Part shown: piece after piece, positions 3,023-47,785 of the stretch
Layout of the letters: the number at the start of each line of letters is the position of its first letter
Numbering within the stretch: the stretch's first letter is position 1
DNA from: Candidatus Vogelbacteria bacterium RIFOXYD1_FULL_51_18
GTDB lineage: Bacteria; Patescibacteriota; Minisyncoccia; Phycocordibacterales; UBA9988
Length of the DNA stretch: 64,000 nucleotides
Assembly (NCBI GenBank): GCA_001823095.1
Contig: MHTL01000014.1
Coordinates: forward strand, 1,881-65,880
Direction: 5' to 3'
Notes under the pieces: model-generated
Databases searched by the model: none
Told to the model about the DNA's origin: nothing
The model's input: only the letters and a program-made list of their open reading frames with translations
Translations under genes and position numbers: made by a program

Positions 3023-3556
3023 ATGCATCTGCGCACGAAAAGGGTCGCAGGGTTCACGCTCATTGAACTCCTTGTTGTTATCGGCATTATCGGCATCCTC
3101 TCGAGCATTGTGCTTGCCTCTCTCCAAACCTCGCGCAAAAAAGCCCTTGATGCGGCGGTGCAGGAGCAATTAGTGGCTATGCGGTCGGCGGTGGAATTGT
3201 ATGCCTTAGACCACAATGGTCTATATACATCGCTTACAGTATTACCATTATTTACTGGAGTAATGGATGAAGACTGCGATGCTGTTAATGCAGAAACTAG
3301 CAATTGGTATGCAAATGATTCTGTGATAGAGCCAATGATAGCTAAAATCAATGAGGCGTCTGGACGAGTAATATGCGCGGCGAATAATACGTATACTAAA
3401 TGGGCAGTTTCTGCACGCTTACCCACAAGTCCGATGTCCCCATCCGCTAATTTGAAATGGTGGTGTGTAGATGGCTATGGGACTTCAAAACAATTCATAG
3501 GGGCGATTCCTATTAATGGAGGATTCCCGTCTTACTACGACGCAAAATGCGAATAG
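3023..3556 (+). CDS. type IV pilin / pseudopilin (prepilin N-terminal cleavage-methylation domain)
   Basis: Leader MHLRTKRVAG followed by FTLIELLVVIGIIGIL (class III signal), and a C-terminal Cys pair (WWCVDG...AKCE). Confidence 0.8.
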   Translation: MHLRTKRVAGFTLIELLVVIGIIGILSSIVLASLQTSRKKALDAAVQEQLVAMRSAVELYALDHNGLYTSLTVLPLFTGVMDEDCDAVNAETSNWYANDSVIEPMIAKINEASGRVICAANNTYTKWAVSARLPTSPMSPSANLKWWCVDGYGTSKQFIGAIPINGGFPSYYDAKCE

Positions 3557-3634: not shown

Positions 3635-4171
3635 ATGAAATTCTCTCGGCAAGGGTTTACCCTCATTGAACTCCTTGTTGTTATCGGCATTATCGGCATC
3701 CTCTCGAGCATTGTGTTAGTCTCACTTCAGACCTCGCGCAAAAAAGCCCTTGATGCGGCGGTGATACAGGAGATGAACAGTGTACGATCAGCGGTAGAGC
3801 TGTATGCTTCTATTCATAATGATAAGTATGCCGATGGGACGGCAAACCCTCCCCTAAATGGTTTTTCTAATGATGTAAGCTGTGATCTTGCTTCTCCACT
3901 TACCCCTACCAATGGTTGGTATGGGAATGATCCATCAGTAGCAAAGATATTGTCTAGTTTAAAGTCAAGGACGTCTTACATCTCCTGCGCTTTAAATTAT
4001 GGATATACACAATGGGCGGCAGTTTCCAAACTTCCTTCAGGCCCAACTTCAGGAGCTGGGCAGATTTGGCGATGTGTTGATTGGAAAGGAACGTCAAAAC
4101 AATATACTCAACCGACCCCACCAATGACATCTACTGGCATTTCGCGGATTACAACAGTCAACTGTCTCTAG
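3635..4171 (+). CDS. type IV pilin / pseudopilin, paralog of the upstream gene
   Basis: MKFSRQG|FTLIELLVVIGIIGILSSIVL. About 103 nt of the 5' coding sequence is near-identical to 3058-3160. The C-terminal domain is divergent with a Cys pair (RCVDW...VNCL). Confidence 0.8.
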   Translation: MKFSRQGFTLIELLVVIGIIGILSSIVLVSLQTSRKKALDAAVIQEMNSVRSAVELYASIHNDKYADGTANPPLNGFSNDVSCDLASPLTPTNGWYGNDPSVAKILSSLKSRTSYISCALNYGYTQWAAVSKLPSGPTSGAGQIWRCVDWKGTSKQYTQPTPPMTSTGISRITTVNCL

Positions 4172-4176
4172 GTTTG

Positions 4177-7100
4177 TCATATCCTCTTCACTCCCTCCGC
4201 CACAATTGAGAGTTCGCTATTGCGAGTAGAAACGCGGCCGCGAATGGCAATACAAGTGCCTGCGGTGAGAATTTCTCGGCGCTCGTTGTAGATGCGCGGG
4301 AAGGCAACCACCTCTATGCGGTCGCTCAAGTCAGAGAGTTTGATAAAGGCCATACGTTCGTTATTTTTTGTTGTCACCTCACGCAGTTCGTCAATAAGCC
4401 CGGCTACCACCACAAGCGACCCATCACTCATTTCTTTTGCGTTTGCGATAGTATTCTTGCCTCCATTTTCAGACAAGAGCTTCTCGCGGTACTTATCCAA
4501 GGGGTGGCCCGAAACGTAGAGACCGAGAAGTTCTTTTTCCCAGCCGAGTATGATCTCCGGAGGGATGGGTCCTGCTGGTTTTAACTTGAGGGCTGGCACA
4601 GTCCCGGAATCAGTCATGAGACCAAAGAGCGAATCCTGCGAATCCCCGTGCTTATGGAGCTCGCGCGCGTACTCAATGGATTCCTCAATGTTCGCTAAGA
4701 GCATTGCCCGGTTCTTCTCCACGCTGTCTAGCGCTCCCGCCTTGATGAGTGATTCCAACGACTTGCGGTTGAGGTTTTTATGGCGCACCCGTTCAAGAAA
4801 GTCTGCAAAGGAGCTAAAGGACCCATGCTCCTTGCGTTCACTCGCGATGGCCTCGGCAATCTCGGCGCCTAAATTTTTTATTGAGTAGAGTCCAAAGCGG
4901 ATCTTATTCATAGTAGACACCGGATGTTTATCCGCCGCGGCGGACCCAACATCCGGTGTTTTTGGTGTCTTCAACACGGTAAAGTCCCCGTAGCTCTCAT
5001 TCACATCGGGCGGGAGCACGAGGATATTCATACGCTTGCACTCCTCAATAATGCTCGCCACCTCGTCCACATCGCCCGATTCGGCGGAGAGCACCGCTGT
5101 CATATACTCGCTCGGGTAGTGCGCCTTCATGTACGCAGTCTGGTAGGCCACGTGCCCGTAGCTTGCCGCGTGCGCTTTGTTGAATCCATAGGCGGCAAAG
5201 GGTTCAATAAGGAGCCACAGCGCACGCGCCTTCTCCTTGGAAAGTTTTCCGTGTGAGATAAATCCTTCCAGGAGCTTCTCTTTTTGGGTTGCCATCTCCG
5301 CAGGAATCTTCTTGCCCATTGCCTTACGCAGTTTGTCCGCCTCGGTCCAGCTGTAGCCCGCGAGCAGAATGGCAATCATCATAACATCGTCTTGATAGGT
5401 GATCACGCCGTAGCTCTGATACAGAATCTTTTCCATGCGCGGGTCAAGGTAGCTTACCAGCCGCGGATTGTGCTTGCGGCGAATGTACTCGGGGATAGAC
5501 TCCATCGGTCCCGGGCGATAGAGCGCGACCATGGCGTTGATGTCGTGGATGCTGGAGGGTTTGAGCTCCTTGAGCCATCGCGTCATGCCCGAGCCGCCCA
5601 GCTGGAAGAGCGCGTACGTTTCGCCGCGCGCGAGCATGGCAAAGGTTTTTGCGTCGTCAAGAGGGAGTGCGCTCAAGTCAATCGTCTTTTTCACTGTTTC
5701 TTGCACCAAACGCGCCGCGCCTTCAAGAATGGAGAGGTTCCTGATGCCGAGAAAGTCAAACTTAAGGAGCCCAGCATCCTCAACGCTGTGCATATCATAC
5801 TGGGTGATAATCTTCCCGCCCTTGGGGTCAAGCTGGACGGGGACAAAGTCGGTAATCTCGGTAGGCGCAATCACTACTCCTGCGGCGTGGACGCTAATGT
5901 GCCGCGCGCAACCTTCCAACTTTTTAGCCAAGTCCATAATCTCGCGCACCTCTGCCTCATCCTCGTACATTTTTTTTAGTTCCGGCTCCAATTCCATAGC
6001 GCGGTCAATCGTCATGGGGAAGCCCTGACTGCCCATAGGGATAAGTTTGGACACGCGGTCGCCGAGGGCGTAAGGATGCCCCAGCGCGCGCGCGACGTCG
6101 CGGACGGCGCCTCGCGCCATCATGGAGCCAAAAGTGCCAATCTGTGCCACCTTCTCCTCGCCGTACTTCTCGCGCACATAGTCTAGGACTTTTTCCCTCC
6201 CGTTGTCGGCGAAGTCCATATCAATATCGGGTGGCGAGGGGCGGTCGGGGTTGAGAAAGCGCTCAAAAGGGAGCTTGTATTTGAGCGGATCAACTGCGCC
6301 GATGCCGATAAGGTAAGAAACGAGCGAGCCAGCCGCAGATCCTCTCGTATTAGTAAGCACGCCGAGGCGCTTTGCCGCGCTGTAGATATCGGCAACGGTG
6401 AGAAAGTAGGGCGCGTAGCCTTTGCGGCAAATAATGTCTAGTTCATATCGCATGCGTTCGAGAGCGCTCTCGCCAAAATCAGGATTGCGTGTGAGGTACT
6501 CTGCAAGTCCCGCTTCTGTCTTCTTGATGAGCTCATGCTCAAAACTGGATCCCTTAGGGATCTGGTAGTCAGGAAAGCGCCATGTGCCCAGCGGGAGTTC
6601 AATATCAACGAGTTCTGCAACGCGGAGCGTGTTATCTACTGCCTCTGGCGCGTCGGCAAAGAATGAACGGAATGTTTTCTCGTCAACAAAGGAGAAATCC
6701 TCGGTGCTGTTTGCCATGTCTCTGGTGTCCTGAATATCAGTATTAGTTTGCACGGCCACGAGAGTGTGGTGCGCGCGCTGGTCTTCAGCATTGAGGTAAT
6801 GCGCATCATGAGTCGCCACAAGGGGGACATTAAGCTCGCGAGCTATCTCAATGAGGAGCGCTTTGACGCGCGCCCCACCCTCAATGCCCGGGTGCTGCAT
6901 AATTTCCACAAAGTAGTGTTCTGCGCCAAAAATCTCCTGGTACTCGCGGACAAGCGCGCGCAGTTTGTCACGGTCTCCTACCGCGGCTGCCTGCGAAAGT
7001 TCGCTGCCCATACACCCCGAGAGGCAGACAAGCCCATCATGGTGCTCACGCAGAAGCTCCTTGTCCATGCGCGGCTTGTAGTAATAACCCTCCAAATTTG

Positions 7101-7422
7101 CTTTAGTGACAAGCTTGATGAGATCCCGGTAGCCGCTCTCGTTTTTGGCGAGAAGCGTGAGATGGTAGCGTCGAGCGTCAATGCGCGCCTCTTTGTCAAA
7201 GCGCGAGCGGACGGCCATGTAGGCTTCCACGCCGATGATGGGTTTGATGCCGGCCGCGGTGCATTTTTTGTAAAATTCCAGCGCGCCGTAGAGGTTGCCG
7301 TGGTCGGTGAGGCCGAGGGCGGGAGAGCCGTACTCCTTGGCCTTCTTTACCAAATCAGGAATTTTCATCAGACCATCCAAGAGCGAGTAGTGACTGTGGT
7401 TGTGGAGGTGTACGAAGGCCAT
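4177..7422 (-). CDS. dnaE: DNA polymerase III alpha subunit
   Basis: N-terminal PHP domain (FVHLHNHSHYSLLDG), polymerase core and OB-fold tail; 1081 aa. Confidence 0.95.
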   Translation of the reverse strand: MAFVHLHNHSHYSLLDGLMKIPDLVKKAKEYGSPALGLTDHGNLYGALEFYKKCTAAGIKPIIGVEAYMAVRSRFDKEARIDARRYHLTLLAKNESGYRDLIKLVTKANLEGYYYKPRMDKELLREHHDGLVCLSGCMGSELSQAAAVGDRDKLRALVREYQEIFGAEHYFVEIMQHPGIEGGARVKALLIEIARELNVPLVATHDAHYLNAEDQRAHHTLVAVQTNTDIQDTRDMANSTEDFSFVDEKTFRSFFADAPEAVDNTLRVAELVDIELPLGTWRFPDYQIPKGSSFEHELIKKTEAGLAEYLTRNPDFGESALERMRYELDIICRKGYAPYFLTVADIYSAAKRLGVLTNTRGSAAGSLVSYLIGIGAVDPLKYKLPFERFLNPDRPSPPDIDMDFADNGREKVLDYVREKYGEEKVAQIGTFGSMMARGAVRDVARALGHPYALGDRVSKLIPMGSQGFPMTIDRAMELEPELKKMYEDEAEVREIMDLAKKLEGCARHISVHAAGVVIAPTEITDFVPVQLDPKGGKIITQYDMHSVEDAGLLKFDFLGIRNLSILEGAARLVQETVKKTIDLSALPLDDAKTFAMLARGETYALFQLGGSGMTRWLKELKPSSIHDINAMVALYRPGPMESIPEYIRRKHNPRLVSYLDPRMEKILYQSYGVITYQDDVMMIAILLAGYSWTEADKLRKAMGKKIPAEMATQKEKLLEGFISHGKLSKEKARALWLLIEPFAAYGFNKAHAASYGHVAYQTAYMKAHYPSEYMTAVLSAESGDVDEVASIIEECKRMNILVLPPDVNESYGDFTVLKTPKTPDVGSAAADKHPVSTMNKIRFGLYSIKNLGAEIAEAIASERKEHGSFSSFADFLERVRHKNLNRKSLESLIKAGALDSVEKNRAMLLANIEESIEYARELHKHGDSQDSLFGLMTDSGTVPALKLKPAGPIPPEIILGWEKELLGLYVSGHPLDKYREKLLSENGGKNTIANAKEMSDGSLVVVAGLIDELREVTTKNNERMAFIKLSDLSDRIEVVAFPRIYNERREILTAGTCIAIRGRVSTRNSELSIVAEGVKRI

Positions 7423-7458
7423 GCCGCTAGTATAGCAGAGCCCACCATTCCCGCCGAT

Positions 7459-7494
7459 GTAATAATCCTCTCACGATCGTGGAAGGATTATTAC
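7459..7494. repeat. 36-nt near-perfect palindrome gtaataatcct-ctCACGATCGTGga-aggattattac (TCACGATCGTGA-core hairpin family), between the wHTH/Cas2-like gene and dnaE
   Basis: The reverse complement equals itself except for 2 central positions. It lies about 35 nt upstream of the dnaE ATG and 14 nt downstream of the 7508-8086 gene. Confidence 0.8.
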
Positions 7495-7507
7495 AATCCC
7501 ATTTTGT

Positions 7508-8086
7508 TTATTTTAAAGGTAGGTCAAATGCTTTGCGTAGCCATCGGTCATTCTCAATAAAATCGGCAGTGAGATAGAGCACGTCTTTACCTATGTGGAT
7601 ATGCGCTTTCAAGAGCGTCACTACTTCTTGGCATTCGTACGGGTAGACCCATACACTCCGCTGGAGCTGGATAAAACCAAGTTGTGTAAGCCAGATGCGC
7701 AACGTATCTCTAGCGCCGCGCCTGGTTTCTTTGATGTCAAAGATAATGATTCTATATTTCTTATCCCACCGACGCGGTGTGGCGAGTGTTATATGTTTAA
7801 GCCGATACTGCATAAGGAGATCCCTGCCCTTTTCTGTAAGTCTCAATACCTTTCCAACTACCGGGTCTTGCTCCTGTTTGATTAACCCTTGCCGGATACA
7901 ACGCGTGACGACTACGTTTACATAGTGACACTTCTGCCGCCTGAAGAGAGGGGTGTATTTTAAGAGGCGCATTGCATTCGGCGCAACAGCGGCAAGGGCG
8001 AGGATCCCTGTGACGGCGATAAGACCAAGCACAATGGCGCTCACATCCCCTAGCACCCCCGATTTCTCTTTTTGTTTTTTCTCCAT
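7508..8086 (-). CDS. membrane-anchored winged-helix plus Cas2-like domain protein (PaaX/Cas2-fold-like), function unknown
   Basis: N-terminal TM helix (VSAIVLGLIAVTGILALAAV) and a wHTH-like segment (RCIRQGLIKQ...LRLTEKGRDLL). The C-terminal block YRIIIFDIKETRRGARDTLRIWLTQLGFIQLQRSVWVY resembles the Cas2 core (xxVVxYDIxxxxRRxKvxKxLxxyGxRvQxSVFeC). Confidence 0.55.
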   Translation of the reverse strand: MEKKQKEKSGVLGDVSAIVLGLIAVTGILALAAVAPNAMRLLKYTPLFRRQKCHYVNVVVTRCIRQGLIKQEQDPVVGKVLRLTEKGRDLLMQYRLKHITLATPRRWDKKYRIIIFDIKETRRGARDTLRIWLTQLGFIQLQRSVWVYPYECQEVVTLLKAHIHIGKDVLYLTADFIENDRWLRKAFDLPLK

Positions 8087-8087
8087 T

Positions 8088-8123
8088 GTAATAATCTTAC
8101 CACGATCGTAAGAAGATTATTAC
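8088..8123. repeat. 36-nt near-perfect palindrome gtaataatctt-acCACGATCGTaag-aagattattac, 1 nt upstream of the 7508-8086 gene start codon
   Basis: Same arms as the 7459-7494 copy (c/t difference) and the same CACGATCGT core; the two copies bracket one gene. Confidence 0.8.
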
Positions 8124-8205
8124 ACTGTACAAAATTATATAAGAGTGATATTCTATAGAAAACCCTAGCGTAGCTGGGATGATCTTTGTAAAACGAGGTG
8201 TTGAT

Positions 8206-8403
8206 ATGACAGATATGACAGGAAAAGAAACACGTATAGTAAGTGCTATTAATGAGCCTAGTTTCTCTAAGGATATGGAGGAAGAAATTAAACTCCGCGC
8301 GTTTATCATTCTAAGAGCACTTGATGAAATGGACGAGGAACTTCAAAATCGCGCCGACTTACATGCAACACTTAATCCAAACACCTCAATGCCCCCATCG
8401 TAG
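8206..8403 (+). CDS. hypothetical small acidic protein
   Basis: ORF with a plausible GAGGTG RBS-like sequence upstream of MTDMTGKETR; no recognisable domain. Confidence 0.25.
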   Translation: MTDMTGKETRIVSAINEPSFSKDMEEEIKLRAFIILRALDEMDEELQNRADLHATLNPNTSMPPS

Positions 8404-8434
8404 GGGGCTTTTGTTTTTGGTGTATACTCTTGAT

Positions 8435-13837: not shown

Positions 13838-13874
13838 GCCTTAATGACGGAAGTGAGACTTCCGTCATTAAGGC
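13838..13874. terminator. bidirectional hairpin (17-bp perfect stem, GAG loop) between convergent smc and rnr
   Basis: gccttaatgacggaagt-gag-acttccgtcattaaggc; the rnr stop lies within the stem. Confidence 0.6.
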
Positions 13875-24043: not shown

Positions 24044-24049
24044 TGAAAA

Positions 24050-24085
24050 GACACCGAGTGTTTAGGTGCCCCAACACTCGGTGTC
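24050..24085 (+). terminator. hairpin terminator after rpoC (13-bp stem gacaccgagtgtt / aacactcggtgtc)
   Basis: Begins 7 nt after the rpoC stop; member of the ACACCGAGTGT stem family. Confidence 0.6.
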
Positions 24086-24098
24086 TCTCATTATACAT

Positions 24099-27131: not shown

Positions 27132-27341
27132 CTACCAATCAAAATGGTAACCTATTATCCCAAAAAGTATCCCAAAAAAGGCAGTAGGTATACTAACCCA
27201 CAAAGTAGCTCCGAGCCAATCCACCGTCCCTCCAACTTCGAGGATTTGTACCAAAGGAAAGGCACATGCGATCATTACAGTGATCGCTACCGGAATGCCA
27301 AAAGCAAACCCCTTCCCAATCCTACCCCATCTGTTTAGCAT
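27132..27341 (-). CDS. hypothetical small two-TM membrane protein
   Basis: Two hydrophobic helices; no recognised family. Confidence 0.35.
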   Translation of the reverse strand: MLNRWGRIGKGFAFGIPVAITVMIACAFPLVQILEVGGTVDWLGATLWVSIPTAFFGILFGIIGYHFDW

Positions 27342-27441
27342 CGCATCCTCCTCTCAAAGTCCTTTTCACTAGGCGGCGCCTAGGTTTCTGTCTAATAGAC
27401 AGTATAGCATACTGACTATTAAAAGTCAAGTTTTTTTGCAT

Positions 27442-27475
27442 GTACTAATTTATTCACGATCGTGAATAAATTAGT
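27442..27475. repeat. 34-nt perfect palindrome tactaatttatTCACGATCGTGAataaattagta (TCACGATCGTGA-core hairpin family)
   Basis: Exact self-complementarity; lies about 100 nt upstream of the start of the minus-strand gene at 27341. Confidence 0.8.
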
Positions 27476-27836
27476 ATGTTTGTGGGTGATAAAGAACCCC
27501 GTCTAATCTGCTAAAGCAGACGGACGGGGCGAGATGTTAGGTTACTCGAAGTGACTGGAGTCCGACTTCAGTCAATCAGAGCGGTACTTTTTGGCCGGTG
27601 GCCGATGAGCATCTTGCTCTTGGTAATATATGCGCTTGCAGAGGGCGCATGAGTTGATTTCGTTCATGAGCGCTCTCCGTTTGTCAAAATCCACTTCTCC
27701 TGCGGCAAGTTGCTTGATGACTTCTCTTTTTATACATCGATGCACCGTGCTCTGTGTGTTAGATATAGCCGGCACGCTGTCCACCTCCCTTCTTTTTTTA
27801 ATGTAGCACAGAGAAGCTCTGTGGTAAAATAAAAAC

Positions 27837-37986: not shown

Positions 37987-38661
37987 CTAACTCAAATCTT
38001 TCTTCCTTTCCTCAAATTCTTTTTTATCAATCTCACCTTTAGCATACCGTTTCTGCAAAATTTCAAGCGCGGATTTTTCGTGATTGTGCGTGCCGCGCGA
38101 TTGATTCGTAAGCCATTTGATAAGCGCGACAATACCCGCGATTATCAATACCCACCAGAGGATCATAAAAATCCAGCCGAACGAGCCAAAAGGCCCAGAT
38201 CCAAAATTCATCATACTCCCTCCCCACATCATATTCATCATCGGCATCCAGCCGCCGCTTATGGCCGGAAATGATGCTGATGTATCGCAACCAGAAAGAC
38301 GTTTACCCATGACGATGTGAATCTGCTCTTCGCCGTCTTCGCCATGCGCCTGAATCATCATGGCGTTCATGGCGGCATGGGACTCTCCAGCCATTTGTCC
38401 CATAAAATACTCGCCGAGAACTCCAAACTGCTCATCGCTTAAATTCTCGCAAGCGATTTCTTTTGCTTGCAGTGTATCCCAAAGCCCTTTGCCTTCCTGT
38501 TCTTCACGGGCGGTATGTTCAACGACCTCGTTCCAATCAACTGTCGTATTGGAGAGATTACCCATCCCTTCAACACCGTTCAGGACAGGCATTTGAGCAT
38601 CTACCGAACCGTCAACAAGTATTGACCCAAAAATGAAAGCCGTGATTAAAAGTTTTTTCAT
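37987..38661 (-). CDS. secreted/membrane Met-rich protein with C-terminal SHOCT domain
   Basis: Signal peptide MKKLLITAFIFGSILV, a Met-rich segment GGWMPMMNMMWGGSMMNFG, a TM helix, and a C-terminal LEILQKRYAKGEIDKKEFEERKKDL SHOCT-like motif. Confidence 0.6.
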   Translation of the reverse strand: MKKLLITAFIFGSILVDGSVDAQMPVLNGVEGMGNLSNTTVDWNEVVEHTAREEQEGKGLWDTLQAKEIACENLSDEQFGVLGEYFMGQMAGESHAAMNAMMIQAHGEDGEEQIHIVMGKRLSGCDTSASFPAISGGWMPMMNMMWGGSMMNFGSGPFGSFGWIFMILWWVLIIAGIVALIKWLTNQSRGTHNHEKSALEILQKRYAKGEIDKKEFEERKKDLS

Positions 38662-38683
38662 ACAGTCGTATTTTAGCTTATTC

Positions 38684-39067
38684 TTATTGTTTAGAAAAGA
38701 CGAAATACGAAAGATACCCAAGGAGTCCGAGTTGAATCGTAGGCGTTAAGCCGACGGAGAGAATTGGGATTATGGGCATATACTCATTATACGCCCATCT
38801 TCCCGTGTTGAGAGCGTACAATTCAATACATATCGAAATCAAGACGCCAATCGGAATAATGAGCCAGCTTCTTTTTCTGAGACTGGCGACCAGTACAAAG
38901 GGTAGAGTCAATAGGATAATAATAATCGCATCAGCGATAGAAGCTCGCAACAGAATAGTCTCGGTTATCTCTCCGCCCATATAAACGATATAAAAATAGG
39001 AATGTAAATTTTCCCAAATTAGATTAAGAAAAAATGACAAAATAAAAATTAAAGATACTTTTTTCAT
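38684..39067 (-). CDS. hypothetical multi-TM membrane protein (very AT-rich gene)
   Basis: Four predicted hydrophobic helices; composition is markedly AT-richer than the backbone. Confidence 0.5.
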   Translation of the reverse strand: MKKVSLIFILSFFLNLIWENLHSYFYIVYMGGEITETILLRASIADAIIIILLTLPFVLVASLRKRSWLIIPIGVLISICIELYALNTGRWAYNEYMPIIPILSVGLTPTIQLGLLGYLSYFVFSKQ

Positions 39068-39201
39068 ACTGTTTATTTTTCCGCATGAGCGGTATGCTCC
39101 TTAAAACGTTTCCTAAGATCGGTGGTTGATCCAAAATAAAGTTGCGAATCTTTTTTACTTTTCAAAATACATGTGTAGTTCATAGAATTTGGTGTGGGGG
39201 T

Positions 39202-40104
39202 TTATTTTTGTTCCCAGGGACTATTCAAAGACTCTTCTCCAATCTTCCACACGCCCTTTTCCAAGAAAGCCTCGATGGTCTGGCGGGTGGCCTTGTTGAT
39301 AAGATTTGAGTGAGAAAATTTGTTGCTCTTTGCATAGTCGGAAAGCAGAACAATCTTTTTGCTCTCTAAATATGCCAAACGCTTGTGATAACTATTGGTA
39401 AGAGCCTTACCAATAATCTCTTCCATAATTTCGGTTGCCCCCTTTTCATCAAACTCCCTGAAAGCGTCGTAGTATTTCTTCTGGTCGATAAACTTGATGT
39501 TTATCGGCACAAAGCCTTCCCGTATGAGGAGATAGTTGTTGATGACGCGCCCAATGCGGCCATTCCCGTCCATGAATGGGTGGAGATATTCAAACGCCAG
39601 ATGAAGCCGCGCGATGCGCTTGATGATATTTTCATGACTTGTCGCATTGTATTCCGCAAACATCTTCTCAAGACTCCCGTTGATTTCTTTTGGAGCAGGA
39701 GCAATATAACTGCCGACACGAACATACTCGTCATCCTTGCGAAATCGTCCGGCAACTTCATCACGAATATTTGACAGGAGCATCTTGTGGAGTGACAAGA
39801 TAACCTCAAAGCCGAGCTCCTGCTCTTTAGCCCGCTTGTTTATGTACGACACGACTCGGGCAAGATTTTTTGCTTCGAATATTTCTCGTTCAGAAATATA
39901 CCGGTCCAGATCAATCTGGAGAAGTATCTTTTCCGTTTCCTCAAGAGAGAGAGTACTGTTCTCGATAGCGTTTGAGTTGTATACCTGATCTGCGATTTCC
40001 GCTTCGCTTATAAGCTTAATAAGCGCATCTTTTCCGATGGCCGCTTTGTAATACCTTTCCCTAAACAGATTGATTTTATTAAGTGCTCTAGCTGTTTTCG
40101 CCAT
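39202..40104 (-). CDS. Fic/DOC-family protein (putative AMPylase)
   Basis: Canonical Fic motif HPFMDGNGRIGR. Confidence 0.9.
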   Translation of the reverse strand: MAKTARALNKINLFRERYYKAAIGKDALIKLISEAEIADQVYNSNAIENSTLSLEETEKILLQIDLDRYISEREIFEAKNLARVVSYINKRAKEQELGFEVILSLHKMLLSNIRDEVAGRFRKDDEYVRVGSYIAPAPKEINGSLEKMFAEYNATSHENIIKRIARLHLAFEYLHPFMDGNGRIGRVINNYLLIREGFVPINIKFIDQKKYYDAFREFDEKGATEIMEEIIGKALTNSYHKRLAYLESKKIVLLSDYAKSNKFSHSNLINKATRQTIEAFLEKGVWKIGEESLNSPWEQK

Positions 40105-40121
40105 ACGGATTAAGTATAGTC

Positions 40122-40157
40122 TTTTTCACGACTTTGTCAACTCTAATCGTGAAAAAC
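40122..40157. repeat. split variant of the TCACGA/TCGTGA hairpin: tttttcacga-[16 nt]-tcgtgaaaaa, 18 nt upstream of the Fic start
   Basis: 10-nt perfect inverted arms containing the TCACGA half-sites, separated by ctttgtcaactctaa; a further TTTCACGATTTTG half-site lies at about 40177. Confidence 0.5.
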
Positions 40158-40582
40158 TCTCTTTTTTCTTATACTTTCACGATTTTGGACATATAGCCCC
40201 TCTGCCTTTCAGCAGTATAACAAAAAGTGTCTCATATTGGCTCCGGAGTTAAAACCTTCACAAACCCCGAAGGAAAAACAAGTTCCCTACGAGGCATGCT
40301 TTTGAAATTATTCTGCCAAATCTGATACACAAATCCAAAAAGCAAAATCTGAAGTGATGCGCCCCGCCACTATTTTTCTGGGACAAAGGAGGCGGGGCTG
40401 GGCGACCTGTCCGCCGTAGCTTTAGCAAAGGCGGAGCGAACCCTCTCGTCTTCAAAATCCGAGTTCGTATCTAGTTTATTGGCTCCCACTACTGAACGAG
40501 TTTAGAACAATAGATTGGAAGGGTATAAAGCAAGAACTTGAGCTTAGCGGTATTATGACGCTACTGGGCCAGAGAGGTTTTG

Positions 40583-41026
40583 TTAGCGTCTAACCTTATC
40601 GGTTTCAAGATGGTTTTCTGTTATGGCCACAACATAGAAAGTTCGTTCTGGCTCAATATCAAAATAGAATATCCGTGCTCTTTGTTGTAGTTTTATTTCC
40701 TTGAGTTCAATGCCTTCAGCAATGCCCCTGTATAGCTTTTTGTATTCGCTATCGTATCTCATAGGTATTCGGTCCACATAGTTTCTTTGAAAATCGGCCT
40801 CGGGGCGGATTTTTGTTCCTATGGTTTTGAGAGTTTCTATGGCCCTTTTTGCTTTGTTGCCGCCGAGCTCTGAAATCTCGCACATTCTTTCGTTGTATTT
40901 TGCAAAAGAGATTACATAAGGAATTGCCTCAGGTGCTTCTGTGTCCTGAGGCAATTCTTGAGCGATTTGAGAAAGTTTGTCTATTTCATCACTTGGCTCT
41001 GTGGCTTGTTTTGGAATGTCGGTCAT
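40583..41026 (-). CDS. uncharacterised 147-aa protein, candidate toxin partner of the Panacea-domain antitoxin (weak RelE/HigB-like C-terminus)
   Basis: ATGA overlap with the upstream Panacea gene. C-terminal YRGIAEGIELKEIKLQQRARIFYFDIEPERTFYVVAITENH resembles the RelE/ParE/HigB (Gp49-like) beta-strand core; acidic N-terminal 50 aa. Confidence 0.5.
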   Translation of the reverse strand: MTDIPKQATEPSDEIDKLSQIAQELPQDTEAPEAIPYVISFAKYNERMCEISELGGNKAKRAIETLKTIGTKIRPEADFQRNYVDRIPMRYDSEYKKLYRGIAEGIELKEIKLQQRARIFYFDIEPERTFYVVAITENHLETDKVRR

Positions 41027-41526
41027 TTGTGCTTCTTGGCCTCTTCCAATTTTTCAGAGTAGTAATTTTTCATTGATTCAAGGGATATTTCGTTTTCTGA
41101 GTTTTCATAATGCTGAAGGCCCTTTCGTGCTTCTCGCCACGGCTCTTCTGAGTGCGTGAGCATTTCCAAATAACCAGCATCAAGTTTTCCGTATGCGTTC
41201 CATACGGTATCAATAAGTTCTTTTGACTTGCCCGAAATGTTAAGCGTGTCTGATTTTATCTCTTCCTGTATCGGTTCAAATCCGAACTTTTTATATAGCA
41301 CATACAAACTGCGAACTGCTGGCCCGTGCACCCACGCTTCAATCGGCTCACTGAAGAGTTTTTTGTTATTCAATACCAAAGACCAGGCCTGTGCGTAATA
41401 GACCAGTTTTTGGAGTTTTTTATTCGTTATCGGCTCTTTTTCTTGGCTGGCGAGATATAAGAAATATCGGCCTACATCCCGTGCCTTTAAGGTTTTTTGA
41501 GAGTGTAAGGCCATAGGTATTTTCAT
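41023..41526 (-). CDS. Panacea-domain (DUF4065, SocA/PanA-like) antitoxin
   Basis: NKKLQKLVYYAQAWSLVLNNKKLFSEPIEAWVHGPAVRSLYVLY matches the Panacea core, and the N-terminal DVGRYFLYL matches the family leader. Confidence 0.75.
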   Translation of the reverse strand: MKIPMALHSQKTLKARDVGRYFLYLASQEKEPITNKKLQKLVYYAQAWSLVLNNKKLFSEPIEAWVHGPAVRSLYVLYKKFGFEPIQEEIKSDTLNISGKSKELIDTVWNAYGKLDAGYLEMLTHSEEPWREARKGLQHYENSENEISLESMKNYYSEKLEEAKKHK

Positions 41527-41537
41527 AGTAGCAATTC

Positions 41538-41555
41538 TGTAAACAGTTGTAAACA
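41538..41555 (-). promoter_or_regulatory. direct-repeat operator-like element TGTTTACA-ac-TGTTTACA (minus-strand sense) upstream of the Panacea gene
   Basis: Two 8-mers at 10-bp spacing, 12 nt upstream of the proposed ATG, in an AT-rich 110-bp gap after abiEii. Confidence 0.4.
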
Positions 41556-41638
41556 GACAGGAAGATGTTGATATTTCTGGCCGAGCGTGTAAACTAAAGT
41601 AAAGTATGAAAGAAGTAATGATGGATAGACTCATAATT

Positions 41639-42931
41639 TTATTTTAACAAGTCATCAAAGTCGTGTCTGATTAGATCTTCTTTCCGAAGAACGATCTGTT
41701 CCTTCTGATTCAGGTTGTCAGCGGATACACGGATAAGTTTTGTCATCAGGGTGTCACCAACAAGTTCATAGTTAATTTTCTTCAAATAGGCCTCGATTTT
41801 TTCGTAAAATAGAGAGGCGTATTCTTTCTGCTTTTTCTCTGATGTCGGTCTACTGCTAGAACCATTTGCTGAAAACTCGATGCTGTCACTCACTACGTTG
41901 TTGATTGGAAACGAAACCTCGATGTCTTTGAAAAGAAACCAGTACTCGCTCAAGTTATATATAATGCGCACGTGGTCGCCCTCTTTCGTGCTGTACTCAA
42001 AAATGAAAGAGAACACATCAGTCCGGAAGTCCTCGAACACTCGCACTCTTTCGTATTTTGATACGGTTCTGATTTTATATTTATCGCGTAGCTGAAAGAA
42101 AGTGTCGCGCCAGTTCGCAAGCCAGTTAGTGACGAAACGAGGGTCAAGAAAGAGCGGTGAGAGGTCATTTTTGAGATTTTCTTCGCTTACGTTGTTCATT
42201 TTTACCGCAAGTTTTGTGAACAGTGTCCGATAATCTTTTGCTTCTTCCACATTCTTTGCTTTGAGATAGTCAAGGTCGGGTACGATTTTCTTACTCATGT
42301 ACCAAAGTAAATCGTAGATGTCGCGCCCTTTTTCTTCATACACCGCCTCGCCGACGCCACGCGTTCCGCGAAGGAAAATTGCAGCGATTTTGCTCGCCAT
42401 AAGAGAAGAGAGGTTGTATGTCCGGATTACGAATGACAACTGTCCATGATTCTGCGGTATTCTTTCCGTAACAACGCCGCCGGGCGGTGCAAACTGATTA
42501 CAATCAACTTTCACATGAATCCATTCGGAAGCGTAGCCCTCAATCAAACTGCCAGCTCGGAATTTAAGCGTTATGCCTCGATTGTTCGTGATAGAGATTT
42601 TCAAAAATTCCGCGTCAACTCCATAGACTTTTGCGAAATGCTTTTCTGCCTCTTCTTTGAATTCGTTGAGAAAGTCGCTGTCAACCTTGTGGCTTACCTC
42701 AAAATCCAAATCAACGGACATTCGGTCGAGGTCATAGCAGATGCGAAGCGCTGAGCCGCCATACATTATCCATTTGTTATATTCCGGATGATGATAAGTG
42801 AAATCGAGGACATAGAACTGCAACTCCTCTTTAAGAACGTTGAGGCGCGTCTCGGGATCGGAAATGCTAACGCCATAGGTCGAAAGGCCATCAAGTTTGC
42901 TTTTCAGGACTGTTAGTATCTGATCACTCAT
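41639..42931 (-). CDS. abiEii: AbiEii/AbiGii-family nucleotidyltransferase toxin (DUF1814)
   Basis: IMYGGSALRICYDLDRMSVDLDFEVS matches the AbiEii NTase motif (GGTAL...R.SEDLDF); 430 aa. Confidence 0.85.
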   Translation of the reverse strand: MSDQILTVLKSKLDGLSTYGVSISDPETRLNVLKEELQFYVLDFTYHHPEYNKWIMYGGSALRICYDLDRMSVDLDFEVSHKVDSDFLNEFKEEAEKHFAKVYGVDAEFLKISITNNRGITLKFRAGSLIEGYASEWIHVKVDCNQFAPPGGVVTERIPQNHGQLSFVIRTYNLSSLMASKIAAIFLRGTRGVGEAVYEEKGRDIYDLLWYMSKKIVPDLDYLKAKNVEEAKDYRTLFTKLAVKMNNVSEENLKNDLSPLFLDPRFVTNWLANWRDTFFQLRDKYKIRTVSKYERVRVFEDFRTDVFSFIFEYSTKEGDHVRIIYNLSEYWFLFKDIEVSFPINNVVSDSIEFSANGSSSRPTSEKKQKEYASLFYEKIEAYLKKINYELVGDTLMTKLIRVSADNLNQKEQIVLRKEDLIRHDFDDLLK

Positions 42932-43541
42932 GGAGATATGTTTTTACTTTTTCATAAAATTTCTTCCGCTCCTCCTCGTCCATCTCATCAATATCTATCC
43001 GCAATTCTTTTACCATCTTTGTAATATCTTCAAACCGGACGCTTCGAAACTGATGCGTTCTGAAGTACAGCAAGTCGAATAGTGCTTTTGATGGAGAAGC
43101 AATAAAAAAATCAAATTTTCCTTTCACAAGAGAGTAATCCGAAAAGAGATTCTTATTGATTGACTGGTATGAAAAAGTCCCCGCCTTCGTTTCATAATCC
43201 CGTGTGATTTTCGGTGTAACCGACGTGATAGAGCGTATCGCTTCAGTGGCGAGATTATAATACTGGAGCGCAGTCCACGAGCTTACGTAGGAAGGCGTAC
43301 GGAGAATGTTTGCAAGGTAGAAAGAATACGAGATATCGCTTTTATTATCTGCAAAAAAATCGGCGGTAATATACAAGCCATTTTTCAGCGGCAAAATCTC
43401 TTTGCGCTTCAAAAAACGGCTGATGTATGTATTTACCGTACTATTTTTCAGCCCCAACTGACTACCAAGCTGGTATACTGTACTTTTGGTGAAATGGGGC
43501 AAACTATTAAGCTGTTCCAACAGATTTTTCTTGCTTTTCAT
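42924..43541 (-). CDS. abiEi: AbiEi-family antitoxin/transcriptional regulator (wHTH N-domain)
   Basis: N-terminal wHTH (TVYQLGSQLGLKNSTVNTYISRFLKRKEILPLKNGLYI); 8-nt overlap with abiEii. Confidence 0.8.
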   Translation of the reverse strand: MKSKKNLLEQLNSLPHFTKSTVYQLGSQLGLKNSTVNTYISRFLKRKEILPLKNGLYITADFFADNKSDISYSFYLANILRTPSYVSSWTALQYYNLATEAIRSITSVTPKITRDYETKAGTFSYQSINKNLFSDYSLVKGKFDFFIASPSKALFDLLYFRTHQFRSVRFEDITKMVKELRIDIDEMDEEERKKFYEKVKTYLHE

Positions 43542-44061
43542 AACTATGACAATAGTGTATCATATATGAAATGAGCAGTCAAAAGCTCATATAGCCCGCC
43601 CCGCCTTTTTGCCACCCCATTCCAATTCAAATCCCCCCCGCGAAAAAAATAAGAATGGAGAAGGGGCAAAAGGCGAGGGCGGAACGCCGAGGCTCTGCGA
43701 GGCGTTGGGCGGAATGGTTAGAGTCACCACAGAGTCCGAGCGTACGATTCAATCAGAAGCCACCACGCACGCGGAGCGTGCGATTAGTCATCAGTCGGAT
43801 TATTGCGAAAATATGTTCGAACTTTTTCTAACAAACACAGCAAACTTAGATACCCTTCGGAATTTTTGGAACCGAGGGGCGCGCTTCGCGCGCTGTATGG
43901 AAAATCGGCGAGGAGGGCAAAGGATTTTTTCGGAGTGGCAAAAAGCGCGCTTCGCGCGCAGGTGGGGGTTCCATGATGAGTACATCATTCAAAACAAAGT
44001 TTTGCGAGCCGACGGGCGGCAATTTCAAAGCGATTGAGAGCATAGCTTTCCCTTTTTCTAT

Positions 44062-45435: not shown

Positions 45436-45520
45436 CGGCTCAACAAGCCAAAATTATCGCTTTGCAAGAAAATCCCGTCGCGGGACGGGATTTTCTCAAA
45501 AGAATTGGCTCGAACCACGT
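45302..45520. repeat. 101-bp tandem direct repeat, 2 full copies plus a 17-nt third copy, each starting ATTGGCTCGAACC
   Basis: Units at 45302-45402 and 45403-45503 are identical apart from a 6-nt patch (ggcccg vs acgtcg); partial unit at 45504-45520. Confidence 0.9.
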
Positions 45521-45629: not shown

Positions 45630-45705
45630 TGGCTCCGCGGCTAGGGCTCGAACCTAGGACATCCTCGTTAACAGCGAGGCGCTCTACCAACTGAGCTACC
45701 GCGGA
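45630..45705 (-). tRNA. tRNA-Asn (anticodon GTT), CCA encoded
   Basis: Reverse complement reads TCCGCGG-TA-GCTC-AGTTGGT-AGAGC-G-CCTCG-CTGTTAA-CGAGG-ATGTC-CTAGG-TTCGAGC-CCTAG-CCGCGGA-G-CCA, a clean cloverleaf. Confidence 0.85.
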
Positions 45706-47682: not shown

Positions 47683-47736
47683 CATATTTGACAGAGAAGA
47701 GCTCTGGGACTCACTTAATTTTTTGTACAGAACAAA

Positions 47737-47778
47737 AATCATCACATCCTATCACGATCGTGATAGGATGTGATGATT
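47737..47778. repeat. 42-nt perfect palindrome aatcatcacatcctaTCACGATCGTGAtaggatgtgatgatt (TCACGATCGTGA-core hairpin family), 8 nt upstream of the pyrD-like ORF start
   Basis: Exact self-complement. Confidence 0.85.
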
Positions 47779-47785
47779 TGTAACA

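What the first reader, a model, noticed from the sequence alone, without database searches (positions are those of the whole stretch)
7459..8123. One wHTH/Cas2-like gene is bracketed by two near-identical 36-nt palindromes; the same palindrome sits in front of dnaE
Seen directly: gtaataatcctctCACGATCGTGgaaggattattac at 7459-7494 and gtaataatcttacCACGATCGTaagaagattattac at 8088-8123 flank the 7508-8086 ORF. The upstream copy begins 1 nt after that gene's start codon. The downstream copy lies about 35 nt before the dnaE ATG. The enclosed protein has a TM helix, a winged-helix-like segment and a C-terminal block resembling the Cas2 core (YRIIIFDIKE...RDTLR...LGFIQLQRSVWVY). Two readings follow. 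In the first, this is an autoregulated DNA-binding protein whose operators also gate dnaE. In the second, it is a small hairpin-bounded mobile cassette carrying a Cas2-fold nuclease. No CRISPR array occurs anywhere in the window, so the Cas2-like domain is orphan.
Basis: partly seen in the sequence, partly recalled or inferred. Interest (0 to 1): 0.7.

Follow-up and report, generated by a model that had tools for sequence, protein, structure and literature searches.

The report
PaaX-like regulator gene bracketed by operators
A small DNA-binding protein of an uncultured "ultra-small" bacterium, often mislabelled as the CRISPR protein Cas2, has a copy of its own probable 38-bp binding site at each end of its gene, and the same layout recurs across hundreds of related genomes.

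Summary
Two 36-nt palindromes (7459-7494 and 8088-8123) bracket a 192-aa gene (7508-8086, minus strand) upstream of dnaE in a Candidatus Vogelbacteria genome. The protein has a hydrophobic N-terminal helix, a reduced winged helix and a confident Cas2-fold domain (Pfam PaaX_M, E=1.5e-18; best solved-structure match is PaaX). It is neither a CRISPR Cas2 nor a true PaaX.

The arrangement is family-wide. In 81 loci from Patescibacteria, palindromes centred on CGRYCG are about 200-fold enriched within 150 nt of this gene's ends. 56 of 84 genes have at least one, and 35 have one on each side. The two copies at a locus match each other, but arms differ between lineages.

Dyad symmetry is tripartite: an invariant core, a relaxed 6-bp linker and a constrained 7-8-bp outer half-site, ending at about ±19 bp. 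That pattern indicates a roughly 38-bp protein footprint, like the 39-bp PaaX operator, rather than a hairpin.

In this clade the 5' copy contains a TGnTAnnnT -10 box 7 nt before the ATG, which implies autorepression of a leaderless gene.

Mobility is poorly supported. I found one single-gene inversion and one junction variant at the palindromes. The role of the 3' copy and the membrane topology remain open.

The parts
8088..8123 (.). Palindrome B, the 5' operator of the family gene. Layout: outer half-sites GTAATAAT/ATTATTAC, 5-nt linkers, core CACGATCGTA. It ends 1 nt before the ATG.
   Evidence: DNA hairpin z = -5.45; identical in 10 contigs of the same species
7459..7494 (.). Palindrome A, the 3' operator copy. 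It starts 13 nt after the stop codon and ends 36 nt upstream of the dnaE ATG. Outer half-sites are the same as in B; core CACGATCGTG.
   Evidence: I8: 19-nt arms, 89% complementary; z = -5.08
7508..8086 (-). Gene for a 192-aa PaaX_M-only protein. The cluster representative P0001 is 100% identical and comes from Candidatus Vogelbacteria.
7985..8050 (-). Codons for residues 13-34, a hydrophobic helix predicted to be a single-pass membrane anchor.
   Evidence: The AF2 model shows an isolated helix with pLDDT <50. The 19-residue Kyte-Doolittle hydropathy is 2.66 here and exceeds 1.6 in 98% of 93 homologs.
7802..7975 (-). Codons for residues 38-95, a reduced winged helix: helix 46-65, beta wing 69-83, helix 85-95.
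   Evidence: weak MarR-type alignment to recognition helix plus wing; ArnR1-like WHD E=0.008
7529..7774 (-). Codons for residues 105-186, the Cas2-fold (beta-alpha-beta-beta-alpha-beta) PaaX_M domain. It contains most of the residues that are invariant across the family, such as W107, D108, F116, D117, E120, R126, R130, Q142, S144, V145, P149 and C152.
   Evidence: (pLDDT >90)
8094..8102 (-). TGgTAAGAT, an extended -10 box inside the gene-proximal arm of B. It lies 7 nt before the ATG, which implies a leaderless transcript.
   Evidence: Read from the sequence. The same geometry occurs in L001 (TACAAT), L098 (TAGAAT), L095 (TTAAAT) and L101 (TACTAT). Not experimentally mapped.
7429..7437 (-). 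TGcTATACT, the extended -10 box of dnaE, 6 nt before its ATG. Palindrome A ends 21 nt upstream of this 9-mer (24 nt upstream of the TATACT hexamer).
   Evidence: Read from the sequence. Conserved in L001 and L098.
27443..27476 (.). Solo palindrome C, perfect over 34 nt. Its half-site GTACTAAT differs by 1 nt from A/B and its core is CACGATCGTG. It lies 13 nt upstream of a TTGACT-17-TATACT promoter (27401-27429, minus strand) for a 69-aa membrane protein gene (27132-27341, minus strand).
   Evidence: It closely matches the palindromes flanking homolog P0002.
47736..47779 (.). Solo palindrome D, perfect over 44 nt. It has the same core but a different outer half-site (CATCACAT). It ends 6 nt before the ATG of a dihydroorotate dehydrogenase gene (47786-48862, plus strand).
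   Evidence: (z = -9.4)

Best explanation
The gene encodes a member of a large Patescibacteria-specific family of PaaX-like DNA-binding proteins. Each has an N-terminal hydrophobic anchor helix, a reduced winged helix and a Cas2-fold dimerisation domain, and lacks the PaaX C-terminal ligand domain. The flanking palindromes are its cognate operators.

Each operator is a roughly 38-bp dyad with three parts: a family-invariant centre (RCGRYCGY), a relaxed 6-bp linker, and lineage-specific outer half-sites of 7-8 bp. Here the operator reads GTAATAAT-N5-CACGATCGTG-N5-ATTATTAC.

Inferred mechanism: a dimer held together by the Cas2-fold domains straddles the site. The two variable winged helices read the variable outer half-sites. 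The conserved Cas2-fold pair sits over the conserved centre.

The 5' copy spans about -38 to -1 of a leaderless promoter whose TGnTAnnnT -10 box lies in the operator linker. Bound protein would therefore exclude RNA polymerase, giving negative autoregulation, as PaaX does at its own promoter Px.

The 3' copy belongs to the gene unit, not to the neighbouring gene. Its role is inferred only: a second operator for a repression loop, or a protein roadblock that insulates the gene from neighbouring transcription.

In this genome a single-gene inversion has placed the 3' copy just upstream of the dnaE promoter. Any effect on dnaE is lineage-specific.

Shown here: the fold, the family-wide association, the symmetry profile and the position relative to start codons. 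Inferred: binding, dimer geometry, repression and cytoplasmic topology.
For: 1. Fold. PaaX_M E=1.5e-18. The AF2 model has pLDDT >90 over residues 60-190. Foldseek ranks E. coli PaaX (8a39) first at E=3e-4, followed by many Cas2 structures and Rv0674.
2. Specific association. Over 1.14 Mb from 81 loci, CGRYCG-centred palindromes number 56 near the gene (25 kb) against 12 elsewhere (1117 kb) at score >=10. At score >=6 the counts are 91 against 23. 56 of 84 genes have at least one and 35 have both sides. A distant paralog in L030 also has one.
3. The two copies at a locus share their arms (median identity 1.00), whereas arms from different loci do not (0.38). Two paralogs in one contig (L075) carry different palindromes.
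4. Symmetry profile. Symmetry is about 1.0 at positions 2-4, 0.71-0.81 at positions 5-10 and 0.85-0.96 at positions 11-17, then falls to background beyond position 19. The same profile holds for 5' and 3' copies separately (Wilcoxon p=9e-7 and 5e-4) and for identity between the two copies.
5. Site lengths peak at 38-40 nt. The E. coli PaaX operator is TGATTC-N27-GAATCA (39 bp), and PaaX represses its own promoter by steric hindrance (PMC9493321).
6. The variable domain pairs with the variable DNA. The winged-helix region averages 29% identity and the Cas2-fold region 56%. Half-site distance tracks winged-helix distance (Mantel rho 0.18, p=5e-4; partial 0.16, against 0.07 for the Cas2 part).
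7. The -10 box sits in the ATG-proximal arm, 6-7 nt from the ATG, in five related lineages. The other arms lack the TAnnnT hexamer.
8. The central GT/AC dinucleotide shows no strand bias, and G/T mismatches are not favoured over A/C (37 vs 28).
Against: - No binding data exist. The link between protein and site rests on co-occurrence and a weak covariation that shared ancestry could also produce.
- Topology of the hydrophobic helix is unresolved. The N-tail is Lys-rich and the median net charge is +2 on both sides. If the C-terminal domains face outward, the protein cannot reach chromosomal operators.
- A classical repressor does not need a full operator 3' of its gene. 17 of 39 such copies lie between convergent genes.
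- Many sites are perfect across the linker too, over 38-54 nt. That is more symmetry than a protein contact map requires.
- 28 of 84 genes show no CGRYCG palindrome by my criteria. A few of these carry other cores instead, such as GCTATAGC or CACAGGGGTGG.
- I saw no clear residue-to-base code.
- The Cas2 catalytic-type Asp (D117) is invariant, so a nuclease activity is not excluded.
Confidence: 0.6

Rival explanations
1. Recombination or mobile cassette. The palindromes are sites where DNA is cut and rejoined, either by the encoded Cas2-fold protein or by host recombination on extruded cruciforms. The palindrome-gene-palindrome unit can therefore invert or move. On this view the two copies arose by duplication of a palindromic target, as a CRISPR repeat is duplicated around a new spacer.
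For: - With the same dnaE and rnhB neighbours, the gene is inverted in the window relative to L001, L098 and L068. The outer junctions are conserved right up to the palindromes.
- Two arrangements downstream of the P0002 gene diverge exactly at the outer edge of its 3' palindrome. Each arrangement appears in at least two independent assemblies (L095/L102 vs L096/L105), and contig L097 ends there.
- The Cas2-type Asp and several Arg residues are invariant.
- Solo palindromes exist, which could be empty sites.
Against: - Both flanking genes and the orientation are conserved in most locus pairs, even at 40-50% flank identity.
- Only one family gene occurs in the 64-kb window, and no identical copies were seen.
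- No relatives occur in viral contigs.
- Ten contigs of this species show a single orientation and invariant palindromes.
- The relative orientation of the two copies is random: 16 direct vs 12 inverted. This fits neither a target duplication nor invertase sites.
- The mid-arm dip in symmetry is not what a hairpin or cruciform substrate predicts.
- No recombinase, Cas1 or HUH domain is present in the protein. None ranks among the 25 commonest Pfam families of the neighbouring genes, which is all the tool listed.
Confidence: 0.12
2. RNA or hairpin-level element. The palindromes act as stem-loops in the transcript or in single-stranded DNA. They could be protein-independent bidirectional terminators or insulators. 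Alternatively they could be 5'/3' hairpins with a GRYC tetraloop that the Cas2-fold domain recognises as an RNase or RNA binder to control its own mRNA.
For: - All four window palindromes fold far better than shuffled sequences (z = -5 to -9.4).
- In several AT-rich lineages the palindrome is flanked by A and T runs, like a bidirectional terminator (for example L064 and L075).
- Some Cas2 and VapD proteins are ribonucleases (own knowledge). VapD and SSO8090 structures appear among the fold matches.
- GRYC is its own reverse complement, so the random GT/AC orientation does not exclude a tetraloop reading.
Against: - Symmetry is weakest in the middle of the supposed stem and strongest in its distal 7 bp.
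- G/T mismatches are not favoured over A/C.
- The terminator scan finds none at A or B, which lack T tracts. Ordinary terminators in the window look different: GC-rich stem plus T run, for example 8391-8408.
- The roughly 200-fold restriction to one gene family is not what generic terminators would show.
- In this clade the -10 box lies inside palindrome B. If so, the transcript would not contain the 5' hairpin.
- No Rfam family matches.
Confidence: 0.1
3. Surface DNA receptor or nuclease. The hydrophobic helix is a signal anchor, and the winged-helix and Cas2-fold domains face outward. They bind, and perhaps cut, extracellular DNA that carries the cognate palindrome. Flanking the gene with that sequence would then favour uptake of DNA carrying the gene itself.
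For: - The N-tail is Lys-rich and is followed by a roughly 22-residue hydrophobic segment, a pattern typical of N-in signal anchors. The charge balance does not favour a cytoplasmic C-terminus.
- Sites occur on both sides of the gene and are lineage-specific.
- An acidic Cas2-type residue is retained.
- Patescibacteria depend on DNA uptake (own knowledge, not tested here).
Against: - Sites are very rare: about one solo site per 80 kb outside the gene's flanks. Known uptake sequences occur about once per kb.
- The 5' copy is built into the promoter and start codon of the gene, which points to an intracellular regulatory role.
- For this window's protein the C-side of the helix is clearly more positive (+4 vs +1).
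Confidence: 0.06

Closest known systems
PaaX, the phenylacetyl-CoA-responsive repressor of the paa catabolon (E. coli, Pseudomonas; PDB 8a39, 3l09)
   Same: It has a winged helix followed by a Cas2-fold middle domain (PF20803) and is the best structural match. It binds a long dyad of 39 bp, TGATTC-N27-GAATCA, and represses its own promoter by excluding RNA polymerase (PMC9493321).
   Different: The window protein lacks the C-terminal PaaX_C ligand domain. The canonical PaaX N-terminal domain was not detected. TIGR02277 scores 31 bits against a cut-off of 265. The window protein adds an N-terminal hydrophobic anchor. Its neighbours include no paa genes. Its operator has a conserved central element, and a second copy sits 3' of the gene.
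CRISPR-associated Cas2
   Same: It shares the beta-alpha-beta-beta-alpha-beta fold and the FDI...R...LQxSVW motifs. TIGR01573 scores 24.1 bits against a cut-off of 24.5, and many public records name family members 'Cas2'.
   Different: The score is below both curated cut-offs. It carries an extra helix and winged helix. The window has no CRISPR array. No cas family ranks among the 25 commonest Pfam families of the neighbours at 76 loci per side. The 'Cas2' annotation is a mislabel.
RAYT/REP (REPIN) systems: a domesticated transposase gene flanked by its cognate palindromic repeats
   Same: A single-copy gene is bracketed by palindromes. These match each other, differ between lineages, and also occur as solo copies in intergenic DNA.
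   Different: There is no HUH/Tyr transposase domain. Solo copies are rare, a handful per genome rather than tens to hundreds. The symmetry profile fits a duplex-DNA footprint, not a hairpin.
ToxR/CadC-type membrane-bound winged-helix regulators
   Same: The DNA-binding domain is tethered to the membrane, so the target DNA must be brought to the membrane (PMC10629549, listed).
   Different: The order is reversed: here the anchor comes first and there is no extracytoplasmic sensor domain. The winged-helix class also differs.

Membership tests
PaaX family (TIGR02277 / Pfam PaaX + PaaX_M + PaaX_C) | Central Cas2-like domain PF20803 | tested here: met
   E=1.5e-18, 67.1 bits against a cut-off of 24, residues 105-178
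PaaX family (TIGR02277 / Pfam PaaX + PaaX_M + PaaX_C) | Full-length equivalog score, including the C-terminal PaaX_C ligand-binding domain and the canonical N-terminal PaaX winged helix | tested here: not met
   TIGR02277 scores 31.2 bits against a cut-off of 264.55. Pfam reports no PaaX or PaaX_C hit, and the protein ends at residue 192.
PaaX family (TIGR02277 / Pfam PaaX + PaaX_M + PaaX_C) | Association with paa (phenylacetate) genes | tested here: not met
   The 25 commonest Pfam families of the neighbours at 76 loci per side are varied housekeeping genes (argS, gyrA, aaRS, dnaE, uvrB...). None is a paa family. Only the top 25 families were listed.
PaaX family (TIGR02277 / Pfam PaaX + PaaX_M + PaaX_C) | Binds a long dyad operator and autorepresses | not testable with these tools
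   Only indirect evidence: a roughly 38-bp tripartite dyad overlapping the gene's own -10 box and ATG
CRISPR Cas2 | Score above the curated cut-off of the Cas2 models | tested here: not met
   TIGR01573 scores 24.1 against 24.5. PF09827 scores 12.7 against 23.8.
CRISPR Cas2 | Adjacent cas1 and a CRISPR array | tested here: not met
   No array-like repeats in the window. No cas family among the 25 commonest Pfam families of the neighbours.
CRISPR Cas2 | Ferredoxin-like Cas2 fold with an Asp at the end of beta1 | tested here: met
   Foldseek matches to many Cas2 structures. D117 is invariant in 93 sequences.
RAYT/REP or IS200/IS605-type hairpin elements | HUH-Tyr (Y1) transposase | tested here: not met
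   No such Pfam, NCBIfam or PADLOC hit. No His is invariant or nearly invariant in the family alignment.
RAYT/REP or IS200/IS605-type hairpin elements | Many dispersed copies of the repeat | tested here: not met
   Only 12-23 sites lie away from the gene in 1.1 Mb.
Invertible segment with serine-invertase-type sites | Two sites in fixed inverted orientation, plus a recombinase | tested here: not met
   The orientation of the central dinucleotide is random (16 direct, 12 inverted). No recombinase domain is present. No orientation polymorphism in 10 contigs.
Intrinsic (rho-independent) terminator | GC-rich stem followed by a T tract | tested here: not met
   The scan reports no terminator at A or B. 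Neither is followed by a T run.

The most novel reading that the evidence does not exclude
The Cas2-fold domain is catalytically active and, guided by the winged helices, nicks or cuts at the invariant CGRYCG centre of its cognate palindromes. The palindrome-gene-palindrome unit would then be a self-recognising DNA element, for which two versions are conceivable. In the first it is a repeat-insert-repeat module made by repeat-duplicating integration, reminiscent of CRISPR spacer insertion but without Cas1. In the second it is a membrane-anchored, sequence-specific receptor or nuclease whose own gene carries its recognition tags. Either would explain the 3' copy, the perfect symmetry, the inversion and the junction variant.
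Probability: 0.08. Interest if true: 0.9.

Novelty: new variant of a known kind. Interest (0 to 1): 0.55.

Why it matters
Patescibacteria (the Candidate Phyla Radiation) make up a large share of bacterial diversity, are almost entirely uncultured, and their gene regulation is essentially unknown.

This work defines a large family: at least 745 clusters at 50% identity with E<=1e-30. Public records variously call its members 'Cas2', 'PaaX' or 'hypothetical'. For dozens of lineages it also predicts the cognate roughly 38-bp DNA site.

Consequences:
- It removes a source of false CRISPR calls in these genomes.
- It provides ready-made protein-site pairs that can be tested in vitro without culturing the organisms.
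- It offers a natural series of apparently orthogonal repressor-operator pairs.
- It raises a concrete question about why a regulator keeps a second full site at the 3' end of its own gene, and whether it works from the membrane.

Tried and rejected
- **Generic terminators.** Rejected because of the roughly 200-fold restriction to one gene family and the absence of T tracts.
- **DNA-damage regulon.** The first loci examined lay next to dnaE, uvrA and uvrB. Across 76 loci the neighbours are varied housekeeping genes, so I dropped the idea.
- **The 5' copy is less perfect than the 3' copy.** The trend was 19 vs 11 but not significant (p=0.20).
- **Helical phasing of the distance between the two copies (583-764 bp), as a test for looping.** No phasing (R about 0.1, p about 0.6). 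At this distance the test is uninformative.
- **Recognition code by eye, between recognition-helix residues and core-flanking bases.** No clear rule emerged. Only a weak Mantel correlation was found.
- **Population-level inversion.** Ten contigs of the same protein all share one orientation and identical palindromes.
- **Phage or mobile-element carriage.** No relatives in viral contigs and no PHROG hit.
- **Hidden family genes or known RNAs in palindrome-bracketed segments without the gene (L070, L075).** None found by tblastn or Rfam.
- **Strain-specific insertions beside palindromes in L104.** The breakpoints are not at the palindrome edges, so I did not count them as evidence for recombination.
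- **Foldseek against AFDB50.** This library was not available.
- **Literature.** Five searches, three of them aimed at this family or its palindromes, found no description of either.
Full report
**What is in the window.** A search for GTAATAATC-N18-GATTATTAC with up to three mismatches finds only these two sites in 64 kb, against 0.02 expected from shuffles. The enclosed ORF (7508..8086) and dnaE (4177..7422) are both on the minus strand. In gene orientation, B ends 1 nt before the ATG. A begins 13 nt after the stop codon and ends 36 nt before the dnaE ATG. RNase HII lies on the other side.

A and B are 29/36 identical. They agree in the outer 9 nt at each end and in the central ACGATCGT, and differ only in between. 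They are also not alone. All four ACGATCGT octamers in the window are centres of long palindromes. The other two are perfect: C at 27443-27476 (34 nt) and D at 47736-47779 (44 nt).

**The protein.** Pfam reports the PaaX central Cas2-like domain (PF20803, E=1.5e-18, residues 105-178). It also gives a weak winged-helix hit and a sub-threshold Cas2 hit. NCBIfam places it far below the PaaX equivalog cut-off (31 vs 265 bits) and just below the Cas2 cut-off (24.1 vs 24.5).

I built an AlphaFold2 model from 93 homologs (mean pLDDT 82.7). It shows an isolated low-confidence helix (residues 13-34), a long helix with a beta wing and one further helix (residues 46-95), and a confident beta-alpha-beta-beta-alpha-beta domain (residues 111-186). 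Foldseek against the PDB ranks E. coli PaaX first (8a39, E=3e-4), followed by many Cas2 structures, Rv0674 and VapD.

The N-terminal helix is strongly hydrophobic in 98% of homologs, so it is probably a membrane anchor. The flanking charges do not settle its orientation.

The invariant residues lie mostly in the Cas2-fold domain and include the Cas2-type Asp, D117.

**The family.** The identical protein comes from Candidatus Vogelbacteria. More than 500 word-indexed homologs of 180-195 aa all carry only PF20803. Sources name them 'Cas2', 'PaaX' or 'hypothetical'. An exhaustive profile search finds 745 clusters (at 50% identity) with E<=1e-30 and 3069 with E<=1e-10. A scan of one genome per species returned 79 loci, almost all from Patescibacteria MAGs, and several MAGs hold two paralogs. 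No relatives occur in viral contigs or PHROGs.

**The palindromes are a family-wide feature.** In relatives, the gene is again flanked by two long palindromes, often perfect, whose arms differ from those in the window.

Over 81 loci (1.14 Mb), palindromes centred on CGRYCG with score >=10 number 56 within 150 nt of the gene's ends (25 kb in all) and 12 in the remaining 1117 kb. That is about a 200-fold enrichment. At score >=6 the counts are 91 and 23. 56 of 84 genes have at least one such palindrome and 35 have one on each side. A few of the remaining genes carry palindromes with other cores.

The two copies at a locus share their arms (median identity 1.00), whereas arms from different loci do not (0.38). 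Two paralogs on one contig carry different palindromes. Lengths peak at 38-40 nt.

**Protein site or hairpin?** I measured, position by position from the dyad centre, how often the two arms are complementary across 91 sites.
- Positions 2-4: about 1.0.
- Positions 5-10: 0.71-0.81.
- Positions 11-17: 0.85-0.96.
- Beyond position 19: background, about 0.3.

The dip in the middle holds for 5' and 3' copies separately (p=9e-7 and 5e-4). It also appears in the identity between the two copies at a locus. A stem-loop would not tolerate mid-stem mismatches better than distal ones. A dimeric protein with two reading heads and a central contact would.

Across lineages the centre reads RCGRYCGY, followed by an A/T-rich stretch at positions 9-13 and then variable sequence. 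The E. coli PaaX operator has the same scale, TGATTC-N27-GAATCA, and PaaX represses its own promoter by steric hindrance (PMC9493321).

The conserved part of the protein (Cas2-fold region, 56% mean identity) parallels the conserved core of the site. The variable winged helix (29%) parallels the variable half-sites. Half-site distance follows winged-helix distance weakly but significantly (Mantel rho 0.18, p=5e-4).

The central GT/AC dinucleotide has no strand preference, and G/T mismatches are not favoured over A/C. Neither result supports an RNA element, although GRYC is self-complementary, so the first test is weak.

**Relation to promoters.** In the window, the gene-proximal arm of B reads TGgTAAGAT, followed by 7 nt and then the ATG. 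There is no Shine-Dalgarno sequence. The same geometry occurs in L001 (TACAAT), L098 (TAGAAT), L095 (TTAAAT) and L101 (TACTAT). The other arms of the same palindromes lack the TAnnnT hexamer. This points to a leaderless transcript whose promoter lies inside the operator, so a bound protein would block RNA polymerase.

dnaE has its own TGcTATACT box 6 nt before its ATG. Palindrome A ends 24 nt upstream of the TATACT hexamer, at about -37, so A does not cover the dnaE core promoter. C lies 13 nt upstream of a TTGACT-17-TATACT promoter for a 69-aa membrane protein. D ends 6 nt before the ATG of a dihydroorotate dehydrogenase gene. C has a half-site one base away from that of A and B (GTACTAAT). 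D has a different one (CATCACAT) and probably belongs to another paralog that is not in the window.

**The 3' copy.** Across the family, 17 of 39 downstream copies face a convergent gene, so they are not operators for a neighbouring promoter. Neighbours are varied housekeeping genes with no conserved partner. The second copy therefore belongs to the gene unit itself. A repression loop or a roadblock are reasonable guesses. The distance between the copies (583-764 bp) shows no helical phasing, but that is uninformative at this range. This feature remains unexplained.

**Mobility.** With the same neighbours (dnaE and rnhB), the gene points away from dnaE in L001, L098 and L068, but in the same direction as dnaE in the window. 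The flanks are conserved up to the palindromes. This is a single-gene inversion bounded by the palindromes.

For the 65%-identical homolog P0002, two downstream arrangements diverge exactly at the edge of the 3' palindrome. Each is seen in at least two assemblies. The palindromes can therefore act as rearrangement points.

Most evidence points the other way:
- Most locus pairs keep both flanks and the orientation, even at 40-50% flank identity.
- Ten contigs of this species show one orientation and identical palindromes.
- The relative orientation of the two copies is random, 16 direct and 12 inverted.
- No recombinase-type domain is present.

Frequent mobility is not supported.

**Metagenome scan.** I scanned metagenomes for TAMTAAT-N5-YACGATCGTR-N5-ATTAKTA. 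Sites of this type appear only in this species, its close relatives and the P0002 lineage. They were the gene-flanking pairs, site C, and two further solo sites in a 95%-identical strain sample. This protein therefore has few sites, which fits a local regulator rather than a global one.

**Verdict.** The best-supported reading (about 0.6) is an autoregulated, probably membrane-tethered, PaaX-like DNA-binding protein whose roughly 38-bp tripartite operators bracket its own gene. It differs from PaaX in four ways: it lacks the ligand domain, it has an added anchor helix, its operator has a conserved central element, and it has a 3' operator copy. I found no description of the family or its sites in the literature searches. 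The main open points are membrane topology, the function of the 3' copy, and whether the retained Cas2-type acidic residue is catalytic.

Noticed in passing
window 3049-3160 and 3652-3763: A pair of 112-nt direct repeats (93% identical, 603 nt apart) lies just downstream of the dnaE stop codon. They were also visible as repeated matches when a related contig (L107) was aligned to the window.
   Followed up: no
window 45302-45503: Two tandem copies of a 101-nt unit (96% identical) lie next to a tRNA gene at 45633-45705 (minus strand).
   Followed up: no
window 24049-24086 and 54927-54970: A second, unrelated hairpin family (AGACACCGAGTGTT...AACACTCGGTGTCT) occurs twice. These are probably ordinary terminators.
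   Followed up: no
window ~38000-45000: A block of low G+C (0.40-0.45, against about 0.55 elsewhere) may be a genomic island.
   Followed up: no
window 7422-7437 (minus strand): dnaE appears to be leaderless. A TGcTATACT box lies 6 nt before the ATG, and there is no Shine-Dalgarno sequence. The feature is conserved in L001 and L098.
   Followed up: partly
L070 2125-2740; L075 5886-6512: Segments of about 535 nt are bracketed by CGRYCG palindromes but contain no family gene. The L070 segment looks non-coding, has a promoter-like TTGACA and has no Rfam match. The L075 segment holds a 99-aa ORF.
   Followed up: partly
L104 184-1534 and 6936-7631 (95%-identical relative of the window): Next to palindrome B, a 406-aa protein with what look by eye like four XRE-type helix-turn-helix repeats (no domain search run) replaces the window's 74-aa ORF (8179-8403). 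After smc there is a roughly 640-nt insertion carrying a C-type palindrome and an ORF I read by eye as about 175 aa, where the window has only a plain hairpin (13838-13874).
   Followed up: partly
window 8179-8403 (plus strand): A 74-aa ORF with no Pfam match is divergent from the family gene and is followed by a clear terminator (8391-8408). It shares the intergenic region that contains palindrome B.
   Followed up: no
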